Notes under the pieces: model-generated
The model's input: only the letters and a program-made list of their open reading frames with translations
What the model was told of the DNA's origin: nothing
The model's database searches: none
Part shown: in pieces, positions 47,699 through 52,876 of the stretch
Position numbering within the stretch: the first letter of the stretch is position 1
Layout of the letters: each line of letters starts with the position of its first letter
Program-made: the position numbers and the translations under genes
Origin: Enterobacteria phage ECP2307
Direction: 5' to 3' (one strand)
Sequence record: PP461118.1
DNA length: 64,000 bases

Positions 47699-47774
47699 TG
47701 GAGAATCCGAAGGGACTTGAACCCTTATAAACCTGTTTTGCAGACAGGCACATAGCCATTTCTGTCACGGATTC
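47699..47774 (-). tRNA. tRNA-Cys (anticodon GCA)
   Basis: Hand-folded cloverleaf: acceptor GAATCCG/CGGATTC, anticodon stem CCTGT/ACAGG, loop CUGCAAA, T-loop TTCAAGT, encoded CCA. Confidence 0.75.
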
Positions 47775-47872
47775 AAATTGGAGGAAGATACCAGACTTGA
47801 ACTGGTACACCGATTTCTCAGCTACTGGCAGTTTAGCAAACTGCTCCCTTACCTTTTAGGGTTAATCTTCCA

Positions 47873-48608
47873 TTATTTCTGTAATGCGTTCTTCATTTCT
47901 GGTGTTGCAATAGTATCAATCACACCAGTTTTACAAGCATCATCAAACCAGTCTGGTAAGATACCTGCTAAGAACCCATTGATATTCGTTTTAAGGTACT
48001 CTGCAATAAGGGCAGCTTCTTCTTCAATCATCTGCACAACTTCATCTGCATAAGCTGTAATCTTCGAGATACCTTCATTAATCTTGCTAACAGCTTGGTT
48101 AGCTAAATCAGAAACAGTATCAAGACCTTTATCAATAGCATCTTGTAAGTCACTTAATACATCATTAACACCGTCTAGTGCACTGTTAATTGTGTCAATA
48201 GCTTTTTGACCATATTCTGTAGCAACACCCATAATACCACTAAAAGGTGTACAACCGACTTGCTCTCCTGCTGCACCCATAACATTGGAGTAGCCTTTTG
48301 CTACCTGCATACGTGAGGAAAACTCATCAATAGACTTTTGACCATAATCTGTCAATGTCTTAGTAGTTGATGTAGTGCTTGTCAGACTCGTTGTAAAGCT
48401 ATTAAGCAGAACTGTTGTAAGTCCAGCAGCAATGAGTTTATCCTTTATTGTAGGGTCTGTTACAGAGCTAATAGAGCTTACAAGTGATGTAGAGGCAGCT
48501 ACGGTTCCACCTAGAACTGCTGCACCAGTAATAAGGGGATTAGAAAACCCTCTACCGGTTTTTAAGAGATTAAAAATCTCCTTACCTTGTTCTGTCATCT
48601 CTTTCATT
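47873..48608 (-). CDS. hypothetical Ser/Thr-rich protein between tRNA genes
   Basis: ORF 47873..48670; its first 62 nt overlap tRNA-Phe, so start placed at the Met of MKEMTEQ (48608) with an AAAGGTG RBS. Confidence 0.5.
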
Positions 48609-48623
48609 AAGCACCTTTGAAAT

Positions 48624-48700
48624 TGGTAGTCCAGTGGGATTTGAACCCTCTTCTCATGTTTTTCAGACACGCGCTTTAACCATATAAGCTACTTGGACTA
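48624..48700 (-). tRNA. tRNA-Phe (anticodon GAA)
   Basis: Acceptor TAGTCCA/TGGACTA; anticodon stem CGTGT/ACATG; loop CUGAAAA; T-loop TTCAAAT. Confidence 0.7.
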
Positions 48701-48705
48701 TAAAT

Positions 48706-48780
48706 TGGGGTGACCTACGGGATTTGAACCCGTATAGACCATGTTCACAGCATGGGTCATTACCATTTATGATAAGGCCA
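48706..48780 (-). tRNA. tRNA-His (anticodon GTG)
   Basis: Anticodon loop CUGUGAA; T-loop TTCAAAT; acceptor GTGGCCT/AGGTCAC. Confidence 0.7.
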
Positions 48781-48812
48781 CATTTAAGGACTCTCGTAAG
48801 AACCCTTAGAAG

Positions 48813-48888
48813 TGGCAGCGGTATAAGGATTTGAACCTTAATAAGACAGCTTCAGAGACTGCTGCATTGCCAGTTATGCTATACCGCT
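48813..48888 (-). tRNA. tRNA-Gln (anticodon CTG)
   Basis: Acceptor AGCGGTA/TACCGCT; D-stem GCAT/ATGC; anticodon loop CUCUGAA; discriminator G; CCA. Confidence 0.65.
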
Positions 48889-48893
48889 AAATT

Positions 48894-48972
48894 TGGTACT
48901 CCATATCGGATTCGAACCGATACATAACACAGATTTTAAGTCTGGCCTCTCTGCCAATTGGAGTAATGGAGC
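48894..48972 (-). tRNA. tRNA-Leu (anticodon TAA), short variable region
   Basis: Anticodon loop CUUAAAA; T-arm ATCGG-TTCGAAT-CCGAT; 79 nt, without the long class II arm, so the isotype is tentative. Confidence 0.55.
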
Positions 48973-48974
48973 AT

Positions 48975-49049
48975 TGGTGGGGGATGTTGGAATTGAACCA
49001 ACTTCTTCGATTTCAAAGACCGAGGTTTTAACCTTGTAAACTAATCCCC
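48975..49049 (-). tRNA. tRNA-Gln (anticodon TTG)
   Basis: Anticodon stem TCGGT/ATCGA, loop CUUUGAA; T-loop TTCAATT. Confidence 0.6.
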
Positions 49050-49058
49050 TTTAAATCT

Positions 49059-49616
49059 TTACTTTCTCAGTGGATGAATAAAGAATGCCAACATAACTCT
49101 TTCCCTTGAGAATGCTCTTTCTTCTGGGACAACACTTTTAAGTTTCCACCCAACATAAATTCTCCAGTAGAATTGTTTACCAAAGACTTTAATTGATGGG
49201 ATAAAAGCGAATAATCCCCAAGCATTACTGTTCCACATTAGGAGATAACCTGTCTGATTATCTTCAGGGTCAGAACTTACGTTGATATTACCTTTCCACT
49301 TAGTAACATCTTTTACATCTCTTCCTAACACATGGTAAGAGAAGTTATAAGCTTTGTTTCTCCAGAGCCATCCAACTCTCTGCAAATAGACACCTAGCTT
49401 ACCAATTTTTCTAATCTTAGCCCATCGTTTAATGTGACCTTCATCACCATCAATAGGGTTGTCATATGTCTCCATCCATCTGAACCCGAAAGGTAGATGT
49501 CCTTTCTTCTCACTGTAGAATGGAACTACAAAAGGTGCTAAGATAACTGCTAAGATTGCTGCAAATGGTTCTAACAAAGCTAAGAAAATCCATGAAGCAT
49601 ACTTCAGATATCTCAT
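49059..49616 (-). CDS. hypothetical membrane protein embedded in the tRNA array
   Basis: 185 aa; N-terminal hydrophobic helices (WIFLALLEPFAAILAVILAPFVVPF); GAGGA RBS. Confidence 0.55.
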   Translation of the reverse strand: MRYLKYASWIFLALLEPFAAILAVILAPFVVPFYSEKKGHLPFGFRWMETYDNPIDGDEGHIKRWAKIRKIGKLGVYLQRVGWLWRNKAYNFSYHVLGRDVKDVTKWKGNINVSSDPEDNQTGYLLMWNSNAWGLFAFIPSIKVFGKQFYWRIYVGWKLKSVVPEERAFSRERVMLAFFIHPLRK

Positions 49617-49855
49617 TGTCTAATCCTCGTAAGGAGATAAACATTATTATTTGTTTCTGAGTTTTCTGGTAACATTGTCTCAAAATTGACGCTTTTAAGT
49701 TGTCTTCCACCAAAGTAATGACCAATAAAATTTTCTACTTTTATTGGGTCACATCCCCATCCGACTTTCAAGAAAATGTGGGTATCTATAGTGGGAACCC
49801 TTACAAACTCAATGCTATTGGAATTTTCATGTTCAACGACGATTAATGTTTGCAT
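49613..49855 (-). CDS. hypothetical protein embedded in the tRNA array
   Basis: 80 aa; AAGAGGAA RBS directly after the 3' end of tRNA-Arg. Confidence 0.5.
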   Translation of the reverse strand: MQTLIVVEHENSNSIEFVRVPTIDTHIFLKVGWGCDPIKVENFIGHYFGGRQLKSVNFETMLPENSETNNNVYLLTRIRQ

Positions 49856-49872
49856 AAATTCCTCTTACTTAT

Positions 49873-49948
49873 CTGGCGCAGGATAAGGGATTCGAACCCC
49901 TATTAACAGCTTCGTAGACTGTTGCTCTATCCATTTGAACTAATCCTG
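49873..49948 (-). tRNA. tRNA-Arg (anticodon ACG)
   Basis: Anticodon loop CUACGAA (canonical Arg-ACG loop); T-loop TTCGAAT; CCA encoded. Confidence 0.7.
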
Positions 49949-49953
49949 CAAAA

Positions 49954-51898: not shown

Positions 51899-51905
51899 TA
51901 CCAGA

Positions 51906-52130
51906 CCGTTGTTTATCATCTTAAGTGCTACCATTACACCAACTCGACATCTGCCGAGTGAAGGAATCGAACCTTCGCCTTTTCTTTACCGGAGAAATAG
52001 ATTGTTTAAGTTTTGCTGTAAACGGTCTTCTGTAAAATTGTTGAGCCAGACCAAGTTTTATAAATTTTTTCAAAATTAAATTGGCTTGAAAATATCATAC
52101 GTACTTGCTGAATTTGGTCTTCTGCTCCTT
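51906..52130. repeat. two adjacent stem-closed elements of the CCAGACC...GGTCTTCTG family
   Basis: CCAGACCGTT (51908)...AACGGTCTTCTG (52033) and CCAGACCAA (52047)...TTGGTCTTCTG (52116); the first contains a T-arm-like hairpin GAAGG-AATCGAA-CCTTC but no matching acceptor stem. Confidence 0.4.
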
Positions 52131-52211
52131 TAAAGAATACTCGTAAGAACTCTTTAAGGGAGGGGCTAAAATAGCCCTCTCAAACATCATTTTGAAATAC
52201 TTATTATAATT

Positions 52212-52289
52212 TGGCGGTTACGAAGGGATTTGAACCCTCATCATCTCCCGTGACAGGGGAGTATTTTAACCAGATTAAACTACATAACC
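52212..52289 (-). tRNA. tRNA-Asp (anticodon GTC)
   Basis: Anticodon stem CTCCC/GGGAG (perfect), loop CUGUCAC; T-loop TTCAAAT. Confidence 0.75.
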
Positions 52290-52295
52290 TTTATT

Positions 52296-52383
52296 TGGTG
52301 TGCCGTGTAGGAGTCGAACCTACCGAGTCTCAATGACAAGAGATTTACAGTCCCCACCGCTACCATCTACGGGATAACGACAC
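52296..52383 (-). tRNA. tRNA-Tyr (anticodon GTA), class II
   Basis: Anticodon loop CUGUAAA; long variable arm; T-arm GTAGG-TTCGACT-CCTAC. Confidence 0.7.
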
Positions 52384-52392
52384 ATTTAAATT

Positions 52393-52469
52393 TGGCGGTT
52401 AGTCAGGGATTCGAACCCTGTGCCATTCGCTTAACAGGCGACCGCACATACCTTATGTGCTTCCTAACC
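52393..52469 (-). tRNA. tRNA-Asn (anticodon GTT)
   Basis: Anticodon loop CUGUUAA; T-loop TTCGAAT. Confidence 0.7.
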
Positions 52470-52476
52470 TTAATAC

Positions 52477-52545
52477 ATTGCCAGACCGTGTTTTTTCTTT
52501 TATCCGCAAAAAGTAGTTTATTGCTGCATACGGTCTTCTGCAAAA
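52477..52545. repeat. stem-closed element of the CCAGACC...GGTCTTCTG family
   Basis: CCAGACCGT (52482..)...ACGGTCTTCTGCAAAATTGG (52530..) forms a 7-bp closing helix AGACCGT/ACGGTCT; sits between tRNA-Asn and the next tRNA. Confidence 0.4.
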
Positions 52546-52546
52546 T

Positions 52547-52623
52547 TGGAGGCGGGTGCAGGAGTCGAACCTGCCGATACCATGCTAATGAGACATGTGA
52601 GACGCCCTTTCTCTATACCCGCA
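52547..52623 (-). tRNA. tRNA with anticodon CAT (Met or lysidine-Ile type)
   Basis: D-arm GAGA-AAGGGCG-TCTC; anticodon stem CATGT/GCATG; loop CUCAUUA; T-arm GCAGG-TTCGACT-CCTGC; position-1 mismatch in the acceptor stem. Confidence 0.55.
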
Positions 52624-52630
52624 ATTCTTA

Positions 52631-52712
52631 ATGACCAGACCAAATCTCTTCTTTGTCCGATTTCGTGTCAGATGAATAAGATTAAGCTTGCTGTAATTGG
52701 TCTTCTGTCAAA
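52631..52712. repeat. stem-closed element of the CCAGACC...GGTCTTCTG family
   Basis: CCAGACCAAAT (52634..)...AATTGGTCTTCTGTCAAAACTGG (52696..); sits between two tRNA genes. Confidence 0.4.
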
Positions 52713-52714
52713 AC

Positions 52715-52792
52715 TGGCGTTCCAGAAGGGATTTGAACCCTCAAATATCCACTTTGAAAGAGTGGTGACTTTACCGTTTTGTCTACTGGAAC
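52715..52792 (-). tRNA. tRNA-Glu (anticodon TTC)
   Basis: Anticodon stem CCACT/AGTGG (perfect), loop CUUUCAA; acceptor GTTCCAG/CTGGAAC. Confidence 0.7.
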
Positions 52793-52799
52793 ATTAATT

Positions 52800-52876
52800 T
52801 GGTCTCTGTTGGAGGACTTGAACCTCCGGCCTTACCGCCCCAAACGGAACGCTCTACCAAGCTGAGCTAAACAGAG
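52800..52876 (-). tRNA. tRNA-Pro (anticodon TGG)
   Basis: Classical D-arm GCTCAGCTTGGTAGAGC; anticodon loop UUUGGGG; T-arm GGAGG-TTCAAGT-CCTCC; CCA. Confidence 0.7.

What the first reader, a model, noticed from the sequence alone, without database searches (positions are those of the whole stretch)
47699..52876. tRNA array of ~26 genes that appears to decode all 20 amino acids
Hand-folding gives 26 cloverleaf candidates on the minus strand: Cys, Phe, His, Gln x2, Leu x3, Arg x2, Val, Thr, Gly, Ala, Lys x2, Ser, Trp, Ile, Met, a second CAU tRNA, Asp, Tyr, Asn, Glu and Pro. That is at least one tRNA per amino acid, which would make the phage unusually independent of the host tRNA pool. Several are atypical: three Leu-decoding tRNAs lack the long class II variable arm, the Trp candidate has an enlarged D-loop, and some encode CCA while others do not.
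Basis: partly seen in the sequence, partly recalled or inferred. Interest (0 to 1): 0.55.

Follow-up and report, generated by a model that had tools for sequence, protein, structure and literature searches.

The report
Phage tRNA island with hidden extras
This is the well-known tRNA gene cluster of a Felix O1-type phage; its claim to cover all 20 amino acids rests on one odd, never-annotated tryptophan tRNA that does look real, and the cluster also holds unannotated Y-RNA-like and tmRNA-like genes.

Summary
The array is real. ARAGORN finds 26 tRNA genes at exactly 47699-52876, all on the minus strand. Across 9 variants, 8 of its 19 pairs show compensatory changes. It is non-canonical, with an 8/4 acceptor/T stack and an invariant 9-nt insert before the D stem, and none of the ~70 listed matching records (of ~230) annotates it.

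The three Leu tRNAs do lack the long variable arm, and 25 of 26 genes encode CCA. The array belongs to a Felixounavirus and is already known. Published work shows that its tRNA-Ser(UGA) replaces a missing host tRNA. The anticodon set matches the phage's over-used A-ending codons but reads only about 76% of its codons by simple wobble, so "independence from the host" is overstated.

The spacers are not empty:
- Four Y-RNA-like elements, one a YrlA-style tRNA mimic, lie downstream of a gene whose predicted fold matches Ro60.
- A promoter-driven tmRNA-like RNA carries a conserved tag frame (ANDNVFLAVA**) and recurs, unannotated, in 627 phage records.

The parts
52800..52876 (-). tRNA-Pro(UGG)
   Evidence: ARAGORN; Rfam 57.7 bits
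52715..52792 (-). tRNA-Glu(UUC)
52631..52711 (-). E1: short Y-RNA-like element (nnnC-AGA-AGACCnn-nnn-CAGCAA ... nnGGUCU-G-Gnnn), directly after the CCA of tRNA-Glu
52547..52623 (-). CAU tRNA no. 2: initiator-like U1.C72 mismatch, U37, no G-C triplet in the anticodon stem; atypical
   Evidence: ARAGORN; not passed by Rfam at gathering; C1.C72 in SUSP1/2
52477..52544 (-). E2: short Y-RNA-like element
52393..52469 (-). tRNA-Asn(GUU)
52296..52383 (-). tRNA-Tyr(GUA), class II with long variable arm
   Evidence: ARAGORN; Rfam only 26 bits to tRNA-Sec
52212..52289 (-). tRNA-Asp(GUC)
52042..52128 (-). E3: short Y-RNA-like element
51897..52036 (-). E4: YrlA-like tRNA mimic. Same terminal module as E1-E3, enclosing a V hairpin, a T arm (GAAGGTTCGATTCCTTC), a closed acceptor-like stem-loop (ACTCGGC-AGAT-GTCGAGT) and a D arm (GTGTAATGGTAGCAC)
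   Evidence: topology as in Chen 2014 (PMC4201824) and the Rfam YrlA consensus
51676..51751 (-). tRNA-Lys(UUU)
51595..51671 (-). CAU tRNA no. 1 (fully paired acceptor stem; most likely elongator Met)
   Evidence: ATA codons are rare in the phage
51518..51593 (-). tRNA-Ile(GAU)
51474..51502 (-). sigma-70-like promoter TTGACA-17-TATAGT, the best match in the region (11 of 12)
   Evidence: conserved in relatives
51271..51470 (-). tmRNA-like structured RNA with no tRNA-like domain of its own. The tag-like frame GCA AAC GAC AAT GTT TTT CTG GCA GTA GCT TGA TAG (ANDNVFLAVA**) lies at 51389-51424
51194..51270 (-). tRNA-Arg(UCU), reading AGA, which the phage uses 10 times more than the host sample
50970..51052 (-). 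Non-canonical tRNA-Trp(CCA) gene, 'form A'. It has an 8-bp acceptor stem and a 4-bp T stem, an invariant connector AUGUUAAGA, a 3-bp D stem, the anticodon loop CUCCAAA, a C31.A39 mismatch and a G73-CCA end
50867..50956 (-). tRNA-Ser(UGA), class II; 3' end encoded as CCT
   Evidence: ARAGORN; Rfam tRNA-Sec 42.8 bits; function shown for the orthologue in REP phages
50533..50610 (-). tRNA-Leu(UAG) with short variable loop
50450..50525 (-). tRNA-Lys(CUU)
50368..50443 (-). tRNA-Ala(UGC)
50287..50361 (-). tRNA-Gly(UCC)
50204..50279 (-). tRNA-Thr(UGU)
50034..50108 (-). tRNA-Val(UAC)
49955..50032 (-). tRNA-Leu(CAA) with short variable loop
49874..49949 (-). tRNA-Arg(ACG)
49059..49855 (-). Two protein genes inside the array (80 aa, PHROG 14202; 185 aa, DUF7338); function unknown
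48975..49050 (-). tRNA-Gln(UUG)
48894..48972 (-). tRNA-Leu(UAA) with short variable loop
48813..48888 (-). tRNA-Gln(CUG)
48706..48781 (-). tRNA-His(GUG)
48624..48699 (-). tRNA-Phe(GAA)
47873..48670 (-). Protein gene inside the array (DUF7217; function unknown; the true start is probably downstream of the listed GTG)
47699..47774 (-). tRNA-Cys(GCA)
52903..52932 (-). sigma-70-like promoter with extended -10 (TTGACA-18-TG-TAAAGT) at the head of the array
   Evidence: read
53042..54457 (-). Ro60-fold protein gene (471 aa; Pfam DUF2828 + DUF7788/vWA), directly upstream of the array on the same strand; proposed partner of E1-E4
   Evidence: Bas63 gp130 in PMC11482910

Best explanation
The region is the tRNA gene island of a Felix O1-type (Felixounavirus) myovirus. 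It has 26 canonical tRNA genes for 19 amino acids, plus a 27th, structurally aberrant tRNA-Trp(CCA) gene. All lie on the minus strand. The inferred mechanism is transcription from sigma-70-like promoters as multi-gene precursors, followed by cutting out by host tRNA-processing enzymes; nearly all genes already encode CCA. The anticodon set is dominated by U34 tRNAs, which read the A-ending codons (AGA, TCA, ACA, GTA, CTA, GCA, CCA, TTA) and AAG. This 39%-GC phage uses those codons 1.5 to 10 times more than E. coli does. The island therefore tops up, and insures against loss of, the rare or vulnerable host tRNAs during infection. It does not replace the host pool. The Trp gene is most likely a working derivative of a normal phage tRNA-Trp, with an insertion ahead of the D stem. 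The island also carries non-tRNA passengers: four Y-RNA-like RNAs that probably bind the Ro60-fold protein encoded just upstream, and a tmRNA-like tag-template RNA. Shown: gene structures, conservation, covariation, the codon match, the protein fold, and (published) function of Ser(UGA). Inferred: expression and charging of the Trp gene, Ro60 binding, and any role of the tag RNA.
For: ARAGORN finds 26 genes and Rfam 23 at gathering score. The region is 97% identical to Felixounavirus genomes; 402 phage records match and 237 cover at least 80%. A RefSeq relative carries the same 26 annotations. Codons with an exact cognate phage tRNA have a mean phage/host usage ratio of 1.72 against 1.04 for other codons (Mann-Whitney p = 0.016), with AGA at 10x, AAG 3.5x, TCA 3x and ACA 3x. 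REP05-12, which are Felixounaviruses, infect Syn61-delta-3 through their own tRNA-Ser(UGA) (PMC12269064, PMC13596443). For Trp form A, 99.4% of cells are paired, 8 of 19 pairs have changes on both sides, and slid controls have none. RNAalifold independently returns the same cloverleaf. The G73-CCA end and the CUCCAAA loop are present. The anticodon arm is shared with the canonical tRNA-Trp of Erwinia phage W25. Form A occurs in about 230 phage records, including the distant Pectobacterium phage Wc4-1, where only the gene itself is conserved and not its flanks. The short Leu tRNAs keep A73 and the Leu-type D arm and align with long-arm phage Leu tRNAs apart from the missing arm. A bacterial LeuRS charges type I tRNA-Leu (PMC6614811).
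Against: No tRNA program accepts the Trp gene. It breaks three canonical rules: the 7/5 stacking, the 2-nt connector and the 31-39 pair. In this window it has G1.U72 rather than the A1-U72 of most relatives. TGG is not over-used by the phage (ratio 0.64), so there is no codon-usage reason to carry it. About 24 relatives carry a different Trp allele linked to an HNH endonuclease instead, so form A is dispensable as such. No expression or aminoacylation data were available for any gene other than Ser(UGA). Bas63 tRNAs are mostly non-essential on laboratory strains. The host codon reference is a 50-kb sample of K-12, and ORFs were called mechanically.
Confidence: 0.8

Rival explanations
1. The Trp-like gene is not a decoder. 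It would be a tRNA-shaped RNA with another job, such as a decoy or sponge for a host tRNA-Trp-directed nuclease, a primer, or a protein-binding RNA, or else a decaying pseudogene. In that case the phage supplies tRNAs for only 19 amino acids.
For: All detectors reject it. The 9-nt connector AUGUUAAGA is invariant across sequences only 76% identical, while the stems drift. That pattern suggests sequence-specific recognition by something other than the translation apparatus. TGG is under-used relative to the host. The same island contains a proven class of tRNA mimic topology (E4).
Against: A pseudogene would not show 8 compensated pairs and 99.4% pairing. The anticodon loop, G73 and encoded CCA, which are the features needed for TrpRS and the ribosome, are all conserved. 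The 8+4 acceptor/T stack preserves the canonical 12-bp arm length. The alternative allele in relatives (form B) is also a CCA-anticodon, G73 tRNA, so the slot seems to be selected for Trp decoding.
Confidence: 0.3
2. The main selective value of the array is counter-defence rather than codon supplementation. Its members would be nuclease-resistant replacements for host tRNAs cut by anticodon nucleases and similar defence systems. The odd shapes (short-arm Leu, aberrant Trp, U37 in the second CAU tRNA) would be escape variants.
For: The published concept that phage tRNAs evade tRNA-targeting defences (PMC10264068; cited). One tRNA for almost every amino acid, including ones with no codon-usage rationale such as Trp, His and Phe (ratios 0.6-1.0). 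Structural deviation precisely in the arms that nucleases and synthetases read. Allele swapping of Leu(UAG) and Trp among close relatives. The neighbouring Ro60-like gene is reported as a counter-defence gene.
Against: The codon match is statistically detectable and strongest for AGA, AAG, TCA and ACA. No nuclease targeting Leu or Trp tRNAs in these hosts was examined here. The two roles are not exclusive.
Confidence: 0.35
3. The spacer elements E1-E4 are not Y RNAs. They would be processing or structural signals of the tRNA precursor, such as RNase sites, small self-cleaving ribozymes like the tRNA-associated 'theta' HDV-like ribozymes, or DNA-level recombination repeats. E4 would then be a rearranged dead tRNA.
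For: E1 and E2 begin 4-6 nt after a tRNA CCA end. Theta ribozymes are known next to phage tRNAs (PMC10879173). The Rfam YrlA model does not hit E4. The published GNCGAA/CGAA motif is replaced by CAGAAGA.
Against: The terminal helices covary (6 of 12 pairs; outer helix 100% paired), and E4's closed stem covaries while the T and D arms stay invariant, so E4 is not dead. The topology is nested, not the double pseudoknot of HDV-like ribozymes, and no ribozyme family matched at E <= 10. The elements occur in the three genera that have the Ro60-fold gene and are absent from the two Ounavirinae genomes that lack it. Homologous genes in a mycobacteriophage and a Klebsiella phage are followed by sub-threshold Rfam YrlA hits with the same helix + ACAGCAA signature.
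Confidence: 0.2
4. The phage is translationally autonomous with respect to tRNAs.
For: One tRNA-type gene for each of the 20 amino acids if form A is counted.
Against: About 24% of the phage's codons have no phage tRNA under simple wobble, including GGT, its most used Gly codon. Even if U34 tRNAs of four-codon boxes also read U-ending codons, which is my estimate from the table, roughly 8% remain uncovered.
Confidence: 0.03

Closest known systems
tRNA gene clusters of large lytic phages (Felix O1 group itself, T5, T4, KVP40)
   Same: Tandem same-strand tRNA genes with encoded CCA, interspersed small ORFs and homing endonuclease genes. Anticodons are biased to codons the phage over-uses. The cluster is annotated in hundreds of Felixounavirus records.
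   Different: Nothing about the 26 canonical genes is different. Published tRNAscan-based counts for the genus are lower, at 17-23 (PMC8300805), because several members are atypical.
Bacterial tRNA-Trp (E. coli trpT; sequence and identity rules recalled from memory) and the canonical phage tRNA-Trp of Erwinia phage W25
   Same: Anticodon loop CUCCAAA, G73, encoded CCA, A1-U72 in most relatives, and the anticodon-arm sequence.
   Different: Form A has a 9-nt connector instead of 2 nt, an 8/4 rather than 7/5 acceptor/T stack, a 3-bp D stem and a C31.A39 mismatch. It is not recognised by ARAGORN or Rfam. The 8/4 arrangement recalls tRNA-Sec and 'allo-tRNA' type cloverleaves (from memory), but form A has no long variable arm.
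Type I (short variable loop) tRNA-Leu, as in Streptomyces coelicolor (PMC6614811) and animal mitochondria
   Same: Leu anticodons and A73 on a class I body. A bacterial LeuRS is known to charge such tRNAs.
   Different: Here all three phage Leu isoacceptors are of this type and sit next to class II Ser and Tyr tRNAs. The same type occurs in a KVP40-like Vibrio phage. Charging by enterobacterial LeuRS was not tested here.
Ro60-Y RNA systems: bacterial Rsr with YrlA/YrlB (Chen 2014, PMC4201824) and Thermus phage phiLo Ro60 with Yrl1/Yrl2 (PMC12135203)
   Same: A Ro60-fold protein (Foldseek E = 1.5e-8) with several small RNAs encoded beside it. Each RNA closes with a 5'-3' bulged stem, and one carries V, T, closed-acceptor and D hairpins in the YrlA order.
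   Different: The protein is Pfam DUF2828, not TROVE. The RNAs lie inside a tRNA array. The stem motif is C-AGA-AGACC...CAGCAA rather than GNCGAA/CGAA. The Rfam YrlA model does not detect E4. Binding is untested. The PhageMaP preprint only guessed that 'some tRNA genes' might be Y RNAs.
tmRNA (ssrA), including two-piece permuted forms
   Same: An A-rich leader followed by a GCA resume-like codon. A 10-codon frame of the same length as the E. coli tag, starting AND/ANE with an aromatic residue at position 7, followed by tandem stops inside a hairpin. There is a synonymous-substitution signature and weak hits to tmRNA models in several phages.
   Different: No acceptor or T-arm domain of its own in this window and no G3.U70. 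It falls below Rfam gathering scores, is not called by ARAGORN, and is not similar to host ssrA by blastn. The tags end in LAVA or LMAA instead of ALAA.

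Membership tests
Canonical tRNA (the 26 ARAGORN genes) | Cloverleaf with 7-bp acceptor stem, D, anticodon and T arms, and a 7-nt anticodon loop with U33 | tested here: met
   ARAGORN structures; Rfam RF00005 at 40-65 bits for 23 genes; Ser(UGA), Tyr and CAU no. 2 only by ARAGORN
Canonical tRNA (Trp form A, 50970-51052) | Recognition by tRNA covariance or heuristic models | tested here: not met
   No ARAGORN call at default or at -ps60 to -ps90; Rfam best 23 bits to tRNA-Sec, E = 0.47
Canonical tRNA (Trp form A) | Four-arm cloverleaf maintained by selection | tested here: met
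   99.4% paired, 8 of 19 pairs compensated, none in slid controls; same fold from RNAalifold
Canonical tRNA (Trp form A) | 7/5 acceptor/T stems and a 2-nt connector (positions 8-9) | tested here: not met
   8-bp acceptor stem + 4-bp T stem; 9-nt invariant connector
Bacterial tRNA-Trp identity (rules from memory: CCA anticodon, G73, A1-U72/G2-C71/G3-C70) | CCA anticodon and G73 discriminator | tested here: met
   Invariant in all 9 variants
Bacterial tRNA-Trp identity | A1-U72 first pair | tested here: not met
   The window has G1.U72; 6 of 9 variants have A1-U72
Bacterial tRNA-Trp identity | Aminoacylation by TrpRS and use on the ribosome | not testable with these tools
   Needs acid-gel Northern blots, tRNA sequencing or in vitro charging
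Class II tRNA-Leu | Long variable arm | tested here: not met
   Variable loops of 5-8 nt; alignment shows a 9-11 nt deletion relative to long-arm phage Leu tRNAs
tRNA-Leu (LeuRS substrates) | A73 and a Leu-type D arm | tested here: met
   A73 in all three; CCAATTGGCAGAGG-type D arm in two, with a variant in Leu(UAG). The identity rule itself comes from the literature and from memory.
Bacterial initiator tRNA (for CAU no. 2) | Mismatch at 1-72 | tested here: met
   U1.C72 here and C1.C72 in SUSP1/2
Bacterial initiator tRNA (for CAU no. 2) | Three consecutive G-C pairs at the base of the anticodon stem | tested here: not met
   The stem is C-G, A-U, U-A, G-C, U.G
Ro60 / TROVE proteins (471-aa ORF) | HEAT-repeat ring plus vWA fold | tested here: met
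   AF2 model with pLDDT 89.6; the top 12 PDB matches are all Ro60, full length, E = 1.5e-8 to 7e-7
Ro60 / TROVE proteins | Sequence-level membership (Pfam TROVE; PDB profile) | tested here: not met
   Pfam gives DUF2828 + DUF7788; the profile finds no Ro60 chain
YrlA Y RNA (Rfam RF02553) for E4 | Match to the family model | tested here: not met
   No hit at E <= 10, although the model hits next to homologous genes in two other phages
YrlA Y RNA for E4 | 5'-3' stem enclosing V, T, closed acceptor-like and D hairpins, encoded beside a Ro60 orthologue | tested here: met
   the gene ends about 1 kb upstream on the same strand
Y RNAs in general (E1-E4) | Binding to Ro60 | not testable with these tools
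   Only co-occurrence is available: present in 3 genera with the gene, absent from 2 genomes without it
tmRNA | Tag reading frame with a resume codon and stop(s), under coding selection | tested here: met
   64 synonymous to 95 non-synonymous codon differences in frame, against 13:172 and 13:165 out of frame
tmRNA | Alanine-accepting tRNA-like domain (acceptor stem with G3.U70, T arm, CCA) | tested here: not met
   None lies between the promoter and tRNA-Arg; there is no tmRNA call by ARAGORN and only sub-gathering Rfam hits
HDV-like 'theta' ribozymes next to phage tRNAs (for E1-E4) | Nested double-pseudoknot core with a catalytic C | tested here: inconclusive
   No Rfam ribozyme hit, and the observed helices are nested rather than pseudoknotted. 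The theta descriptor itself could not be run.

The most novel reading that the evidence does not exclude
The island is more than a tRNA array. It would be a multi-purpose RNA locus carrying two unrecognised RNA classes. The first is a DUF2828-type Ro60 protein with its own family of 'CAGCAA-box' Y RNAs embedded among tRNAs, shared from mycobacteriophages to enterobacterial phages. The second is a promoter-driven tmRNA-like tag-template RNA lacking any tRNA domain, present in more than 600 phage records and in E. coli plasmids and prophages. It would re-programme or exploit host trans-translation, for example by tagging stalled proteins with a different degron ending in LAVA or LMAA.
Probability: 0.35. 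Interest if true: 0.85.

Novelty: new variant of a known kind. Interest (0 to 1): 0.5.

Why it matters
The array itself is textbook material and already sequenced hundreds of times, so it does not matter much on its own. What matters is what routine annotation misses inside it:
- A selected, structurally aberrant tRNA-Trp would extend the known shape space of working bacterial-type tRNAs. It would also explain why these phages appear to lack Trp.
- The short-arm Leu tRNAs and swapped alleles fit the emerging idea that phage tRNAs evolve to escape host nucleases. They are also already being used as parts for recoded organisms.
- The concrete Y-RNA candidates turn a published guess about the Bas63 gp130 counter-defence protein into a directly testable hypothesis.
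- The tag-template RNA, if it really feeds trans-translation, would be a new way for mobile elements to tamper with ribosome rescue.

Tried and rejected
- **Relaxed ARAGORN on the Trp candidate:** it only produced nonsense 4-nt anticodon calls.
- **Scan of IMG/VR for the 14-nt connector motif:** most of the 120 loci were chance hits. Ten genuine copies remained after context filtering.
- **Single-sequence AlphaFold of the 471-aa protein:** pLDDT 45, unusable. It was redone with an alignment.
- **Sequence searches of that protein against the PDB and NCBIfam:** no Ro60 hit. Only the fold search worked.
- **Ile2 (lysidine) reading of a CAU tRNA:** rejected as unnecessary, because ATA is only 2 per 1000 codons. 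It is not excluded.
- **E4 as a dimeric-tRNA artefact or dead permuted tRNA:** rejected because its closed stem covaries and its ends share the E1-E3 module.
- **Two motif matches in Erwinia phage W25:** these seemed to break the Ro60/element co-occurrence, but they lie inside protein genes and lack the CAGCAA box.
- **The tag element as a copy of host ssrA:** rejected, because only 339 of 5426 E. coli genomes match and the hits are mostly on plasmids.
- **An alternative small ORF (MQTTMFFWQ) overlapping the tag:** disfavoured by the frame-specific synonymous pattern.
- **A tRNA-like domain for the tag RNA:** not found in this window. A candidate contiguous tRNA-like domain downstream in swi2-type phages rests on my hand reading only.
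- **The Nature 2023 paper on REP phages:** it could not be read.
- **Promoter-like sites overall:** not more frequent than in shuffles (11 against 13.1). Only the best-placed ones are cited.
- **tRNAscan-SE:** not available.

Full report
**1. Observation**

ARAGORN finds 26 tRNA genes, all on the minus strand. Rfam's tRNA model passes 23 of them at gathering score, with E from 6e-12 to 6e-5. Ser(UGA), Tyr and the second CAU tRNA are missed. The first two get sub-threshold tRNA-Sec hits, as class II tRNAs often do.

ARAGORN has no Trp. The canonical set therefore covers 19 amino acids.

**2. What organism, and is it known?**

The region is 97% identical to Felix O1-type phages (Salmonella phage UAB_69, Shigella phage Z31). 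402 phage records match and 237 cover at least 80% of the 6.6-kb query. RefSeq phage TP1 is annotated with the same 26 tRNAs and no Trp, and tRNAscan-SE-annotated Silverhawkium likewise. Published tRNAscan counts for the genus are 17-23 (PMC8300805). The array as such is already known.

**3. The Trp candidate**

At 50970-51052(-) lies an 83-nt sequence that runs GUGGGAC...CUCCAAA...GGGGUUCAACUCCUC...GUCCCAU-G-CCA. Alone it folds into a cloverleaf. Homologues occur in about 230 phage records, and none of the ~70 listed rows annotates them as a tRNA. In the distant Pectobacterium phage Wc4-1, only the element itself matches and not its flanks.

Nine distinct variants from four lineages were aligned. 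They give 99.4% paired cells, 8 of 19 pairs with changes on both sides, and none in controls where partners are slid by 1-3 columns. RNAalifold independently returns the same fold, with an 8-bp acceptor stem and a 4-bp T stem. The anticodon CCA, U33, G73 and CCA are invariant. A1-U72 is the commonest first pair, while this window has G1.U72.

The oddities are a 9-nt connector (AUGUUAAGA, invariant) where tRNAs have 2 nt, a 3-bp D stem, and a C31.A39 mismatch. The canonical tRNA-Trp of Erwinia phage W25 shares the anticodon arm, including a position-31 mismatch. Form A therefore looks like a derivative of an ordinary phage tRNA-Trp.

About 24 relatives carry a different allele in the same slot between Arg(UCU) and Ser(UGA). 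This 'form B' is a 71-nt tRNA-Trp with a degenerate D arm, followed by an HNH endonuclease gene in the two loci examined, BPS17L1 and SUSP1. The pattern looks like a homing-endonuclease-linked allele replacement.

I put the probability that form A is a charged, decoding tRNA-Trp at about 0.6. It is certainly a selected RNA.

**4. Other atypical features**

The three Leu tRNAs are 78-79 nt with 5-8 nt variable loops, whereas Ser and Tyr keep long arms. Aligned with long-arm Leu tRNAs of Wc4-1 and a Klebsiella phage, they differ by a clean 9-11 nt deletion. They keep A73 and a Leu-type D arm, and the same short type occurs in a KVP40-like Vibrio phage. A bacterial LeuRS is known to charge type I tRNA-Leu (PMC6614811).

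25 of 26 genes encode CCA; Ser(UGA) ends in CCT. The second CAU tRNA has an initiator-like 1-72 mismatch, but it has U37 and lacks the G-C triplet in the anticodon stem.

**5. Does the set make the phage independent of the host?**

Codon usage was computed from 63 mechanically called ORFs of the window and compared with a 50-kb sample of E. coli K-12. The phage over-uses exactly the codons for which it carries cognate tRNAs:

| Codon | Phage/host usage ratio |
|---|---|
| AGA | 10x |
| AAG | 3.5x |
| TCA | 3x |
| ACA | 3x |
| GTA | 2.3x |
| CTA | 2.3x |

The mean ratio is 1.72 for cognate codons against 1.04 for the others (p = 0.016). Simple wobble nevertheless covers only 76% of the phage's codons. 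GGT, the C-ending codons of four-codon boxes, CGG and ATA are uncovered.

Published experiments give the functional picture. Felixounaviruses REP05-12 infect E. coli lacking tRNA-Ser(UGA/CGA) by expressing their own tRNA-Ser(UGA) (PMC12269064, PMC13596443). Most Bas63 tRNAs are dispensable on laboratory strains (PMC11482910). Supplementation and insurance are supported; autonomy is not.

**6. The spacers are not empty: Y-RNA-like elements**

Four spacer elements (E1 to E4; coordinates in the parts list) share the ends nnnC-AGA-AGACCnn-nnn-CAGCAA ... nnGGUCU-G-Gnnn. Across 18 distinct copies from three genera, the two terminal helices are 93.5% paired. Six of 12 pairs change on both sides, and the outer helix is 100% paired.

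E4 additionally contains a V hairpin, an invariant T arm, a closed acceptor-like stem that covaries (ACUCGGC/GUCGAGU, ACACG/CGUGU, ACCCUUC/GAAGGGU) and an invariant D arm. This is the YrlA architecture described by Chen et al. (PMC4201824) and seen in Rfam's consensus, although the Rfam model does not hit E4.

Immediately upstream, on the same strand, is a 471-aa ORF (Pfam DUF2828 + DUF7788). Its alignment-based AlphaFold model (pLDDT 89.6) matches only Ro60 structures at the top of a PDB search: 12 hits, full length, E = 1.5e-8 to 7e-7. Its Bas63 orthologue gp130 was reported as Ro60-like and as a counter to the ppl defence. The authors merely speculated that some tRNA genes might be Y RNAs.

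Homologues of this protein sit beside tRNA arrays in Klebsiella, Vibrio, Campylobacter and Mycobacterium phages. In two of those phages, sub-threshold Rfam YrlA hits (E = 6e-5 to 7e-4) follow the gene, and the same 'helix strand + ACAGCAA' signature recurs there. Two Ounavirinae genomes without the gene, Wc4-1 and Erwinia W25, have no genuine elements. Thermus phage phiLo provides an experimental precedent for a phage Ro60 with two adjacent Y-like RNAs (PMC12135203).

**7. A tmRNA-like RNA**

Between tRNA-Ile and tRNA-Arg(UCU) lies a ~200-nt RNA, behind the best promoter match in the region (TTGACA-17-TATAGT). It folds far better than shuffled sequences (z = -4.05). It contains AUAAAU|GCA AAC GAC AAU GUU UUU CUG GCA GUA GCU UGA UAG, which reads ANDNVFLAVA**.

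Its core recurs unannotated in 627 phage records, including unrelated groups (Swiduovirus, Schitoviridae, Kuttervirus, Kolesnikvirus). It is also found in 339 of 5426 E. coli genomes, mostly on plasmids, and it is not ssrA. The tags vary as peptides do: ANDNTFLAVA, ANDAQFLAVA, ANDDVVLMAA, ANEEMYLAVA and ANEDRFLMAA.

Codon differences in the tag frame are 64 synonymous to 95 non-synonymous, against 13:172 and 13:165 in the other two frames. Differences concentrate at third positions. The stops sit in a covarying hairpin. Only sub-gathering hits to tmRNA models, mainly the two-piece types, are obtained. No tRNA-like domain of its own is present here. What it does is unknown; I record it as a documented lead.

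**8. Verdict**

- The 'all 20 amino acids' claim survives only through a non-canonical gene that software rejects and comparative data support.
- 'Independence from the host' is overstated.
- The array is an already known feature of a heavily sequenced phage genus.
- The value added here is the evidence for the hidden Trp gene and the identification of concrete Y-RNA-like and tmRNA-like candidates inside the array.

Noticed in passing
window 51271-51502 (minus strand): A promoter-driven ~200-nt structured RNA carries a tmRNA-like tag frame (ANDNVFLAVA followed by two stops). Its core is conserved and unannotated in 627 phage records of unrelated families and in 339 of 5426 E. coli genomes, mostly on plasmids. 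The frame shows a strong synonymous-substitution signature. No tRNA-like domain of its own is present.
   Followed up: partly
window 51897-52711 (E1-E4) and 53042-54457: Four spacer RNAs share a covarying bulged terminal helix and a CAGCAA box, and one has YrlA-type tRNA-mimic topology. They lie downstream of a gene whose predicted fold matches Ro60. They are concrete candidates for the Y RNAs that the PhageMaP preprint only speculated about.
   Followed up: partly
L003 751-1240 (Salmonella phage BPS17L1); L004 about 4170-4663 (SUSP1): An alternative allele occupies the Trp slot: a 71-nt tRNA-Trp with a degenerate D arm, followed by an HNH endonuclease gene in both loci examined. ARAGORN calls it in BPS17L1, but not in SUSP1, which differs by one base in the D region. 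GenBank labels range from tRNA-Trp to tRNA-Pseudo. It looks like homing-endonuclease-driven allele replacement.
   Followed up: partly
window 50533-50610 versus L001 4033-4109: tRNA-Leu(UAG) exists as two quite different alleles among close relatives (GGGAGAUUGACGG... versus GCACCUAUAGCCC...). This points to cassette-like exchange of individual tRNA genes.
   Followed up: no
L133 787-863 and 979-1055 (Vibrio phage V09, KVP40-like): Short-variable-loop tRNA-Leu genes with nearly the same D arm as the window's occur in an unrelated jumbo phage. This tRNA type may be widespread or exchanged among phages.
   Followed up: no
L131, L132, L133, L134: Homologues of the Ro60-fold (DUF2828) gene sit beside or inside tRNA arrays in Mycobacterium, Klebsiella, Vibrio and Campylobacter phages. 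The Klebsiella locus has several unannotated CAGCAA-box elements in a 700-nt gap at 6431-7130.
   Followed up: partly
window ~52140-52165, ~48790-48812 and ~51285-51310 (minus strand): A recurring hairpin motif AAGrGnTTCTTACGAGAGTCCTT (variants AAGAGTTCTTACGAGTATTCTT and AAGGGCTTTCCAAGAGAGTCTT) occurs three times in the array and also in Erwinia phage W25. It could be a processing or termination signal. It remains unexplained.
   Followed up: no
L136 ~1690-1790 and L140 equivalent (swi2-type siphoviruses): Downstream of their copy of the tag RNA lies a contiguous tRNA-like domain (GGAAAGAGCA...GGCGGTTCGACTCCGC...TGCTCTTTCC). An internal loop, CGAAAGUU, could pair with the RNA's conserved 5' AGUUUUCG. 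This rests on hand reading only.
   Followed up: no
L143 ~4757-4827 (Erwinia phage W25): ARAGORN reports a tRNA-like gene with an undetermined 2-nt 'anticodon', flanked by complementary CUUCAGAG/CUCUGAAG arms. It may be another tRNA mimic at the head of that phage's array.
   Followed up: no
window 47873-48670, 49059-49616, 49613-49855: Three conserved protein genes of unknown function (DUF7217, DUF7338, PHROG 14202) are embedded in the tRNA array and kept in all relatives examined.
   Followed up: no
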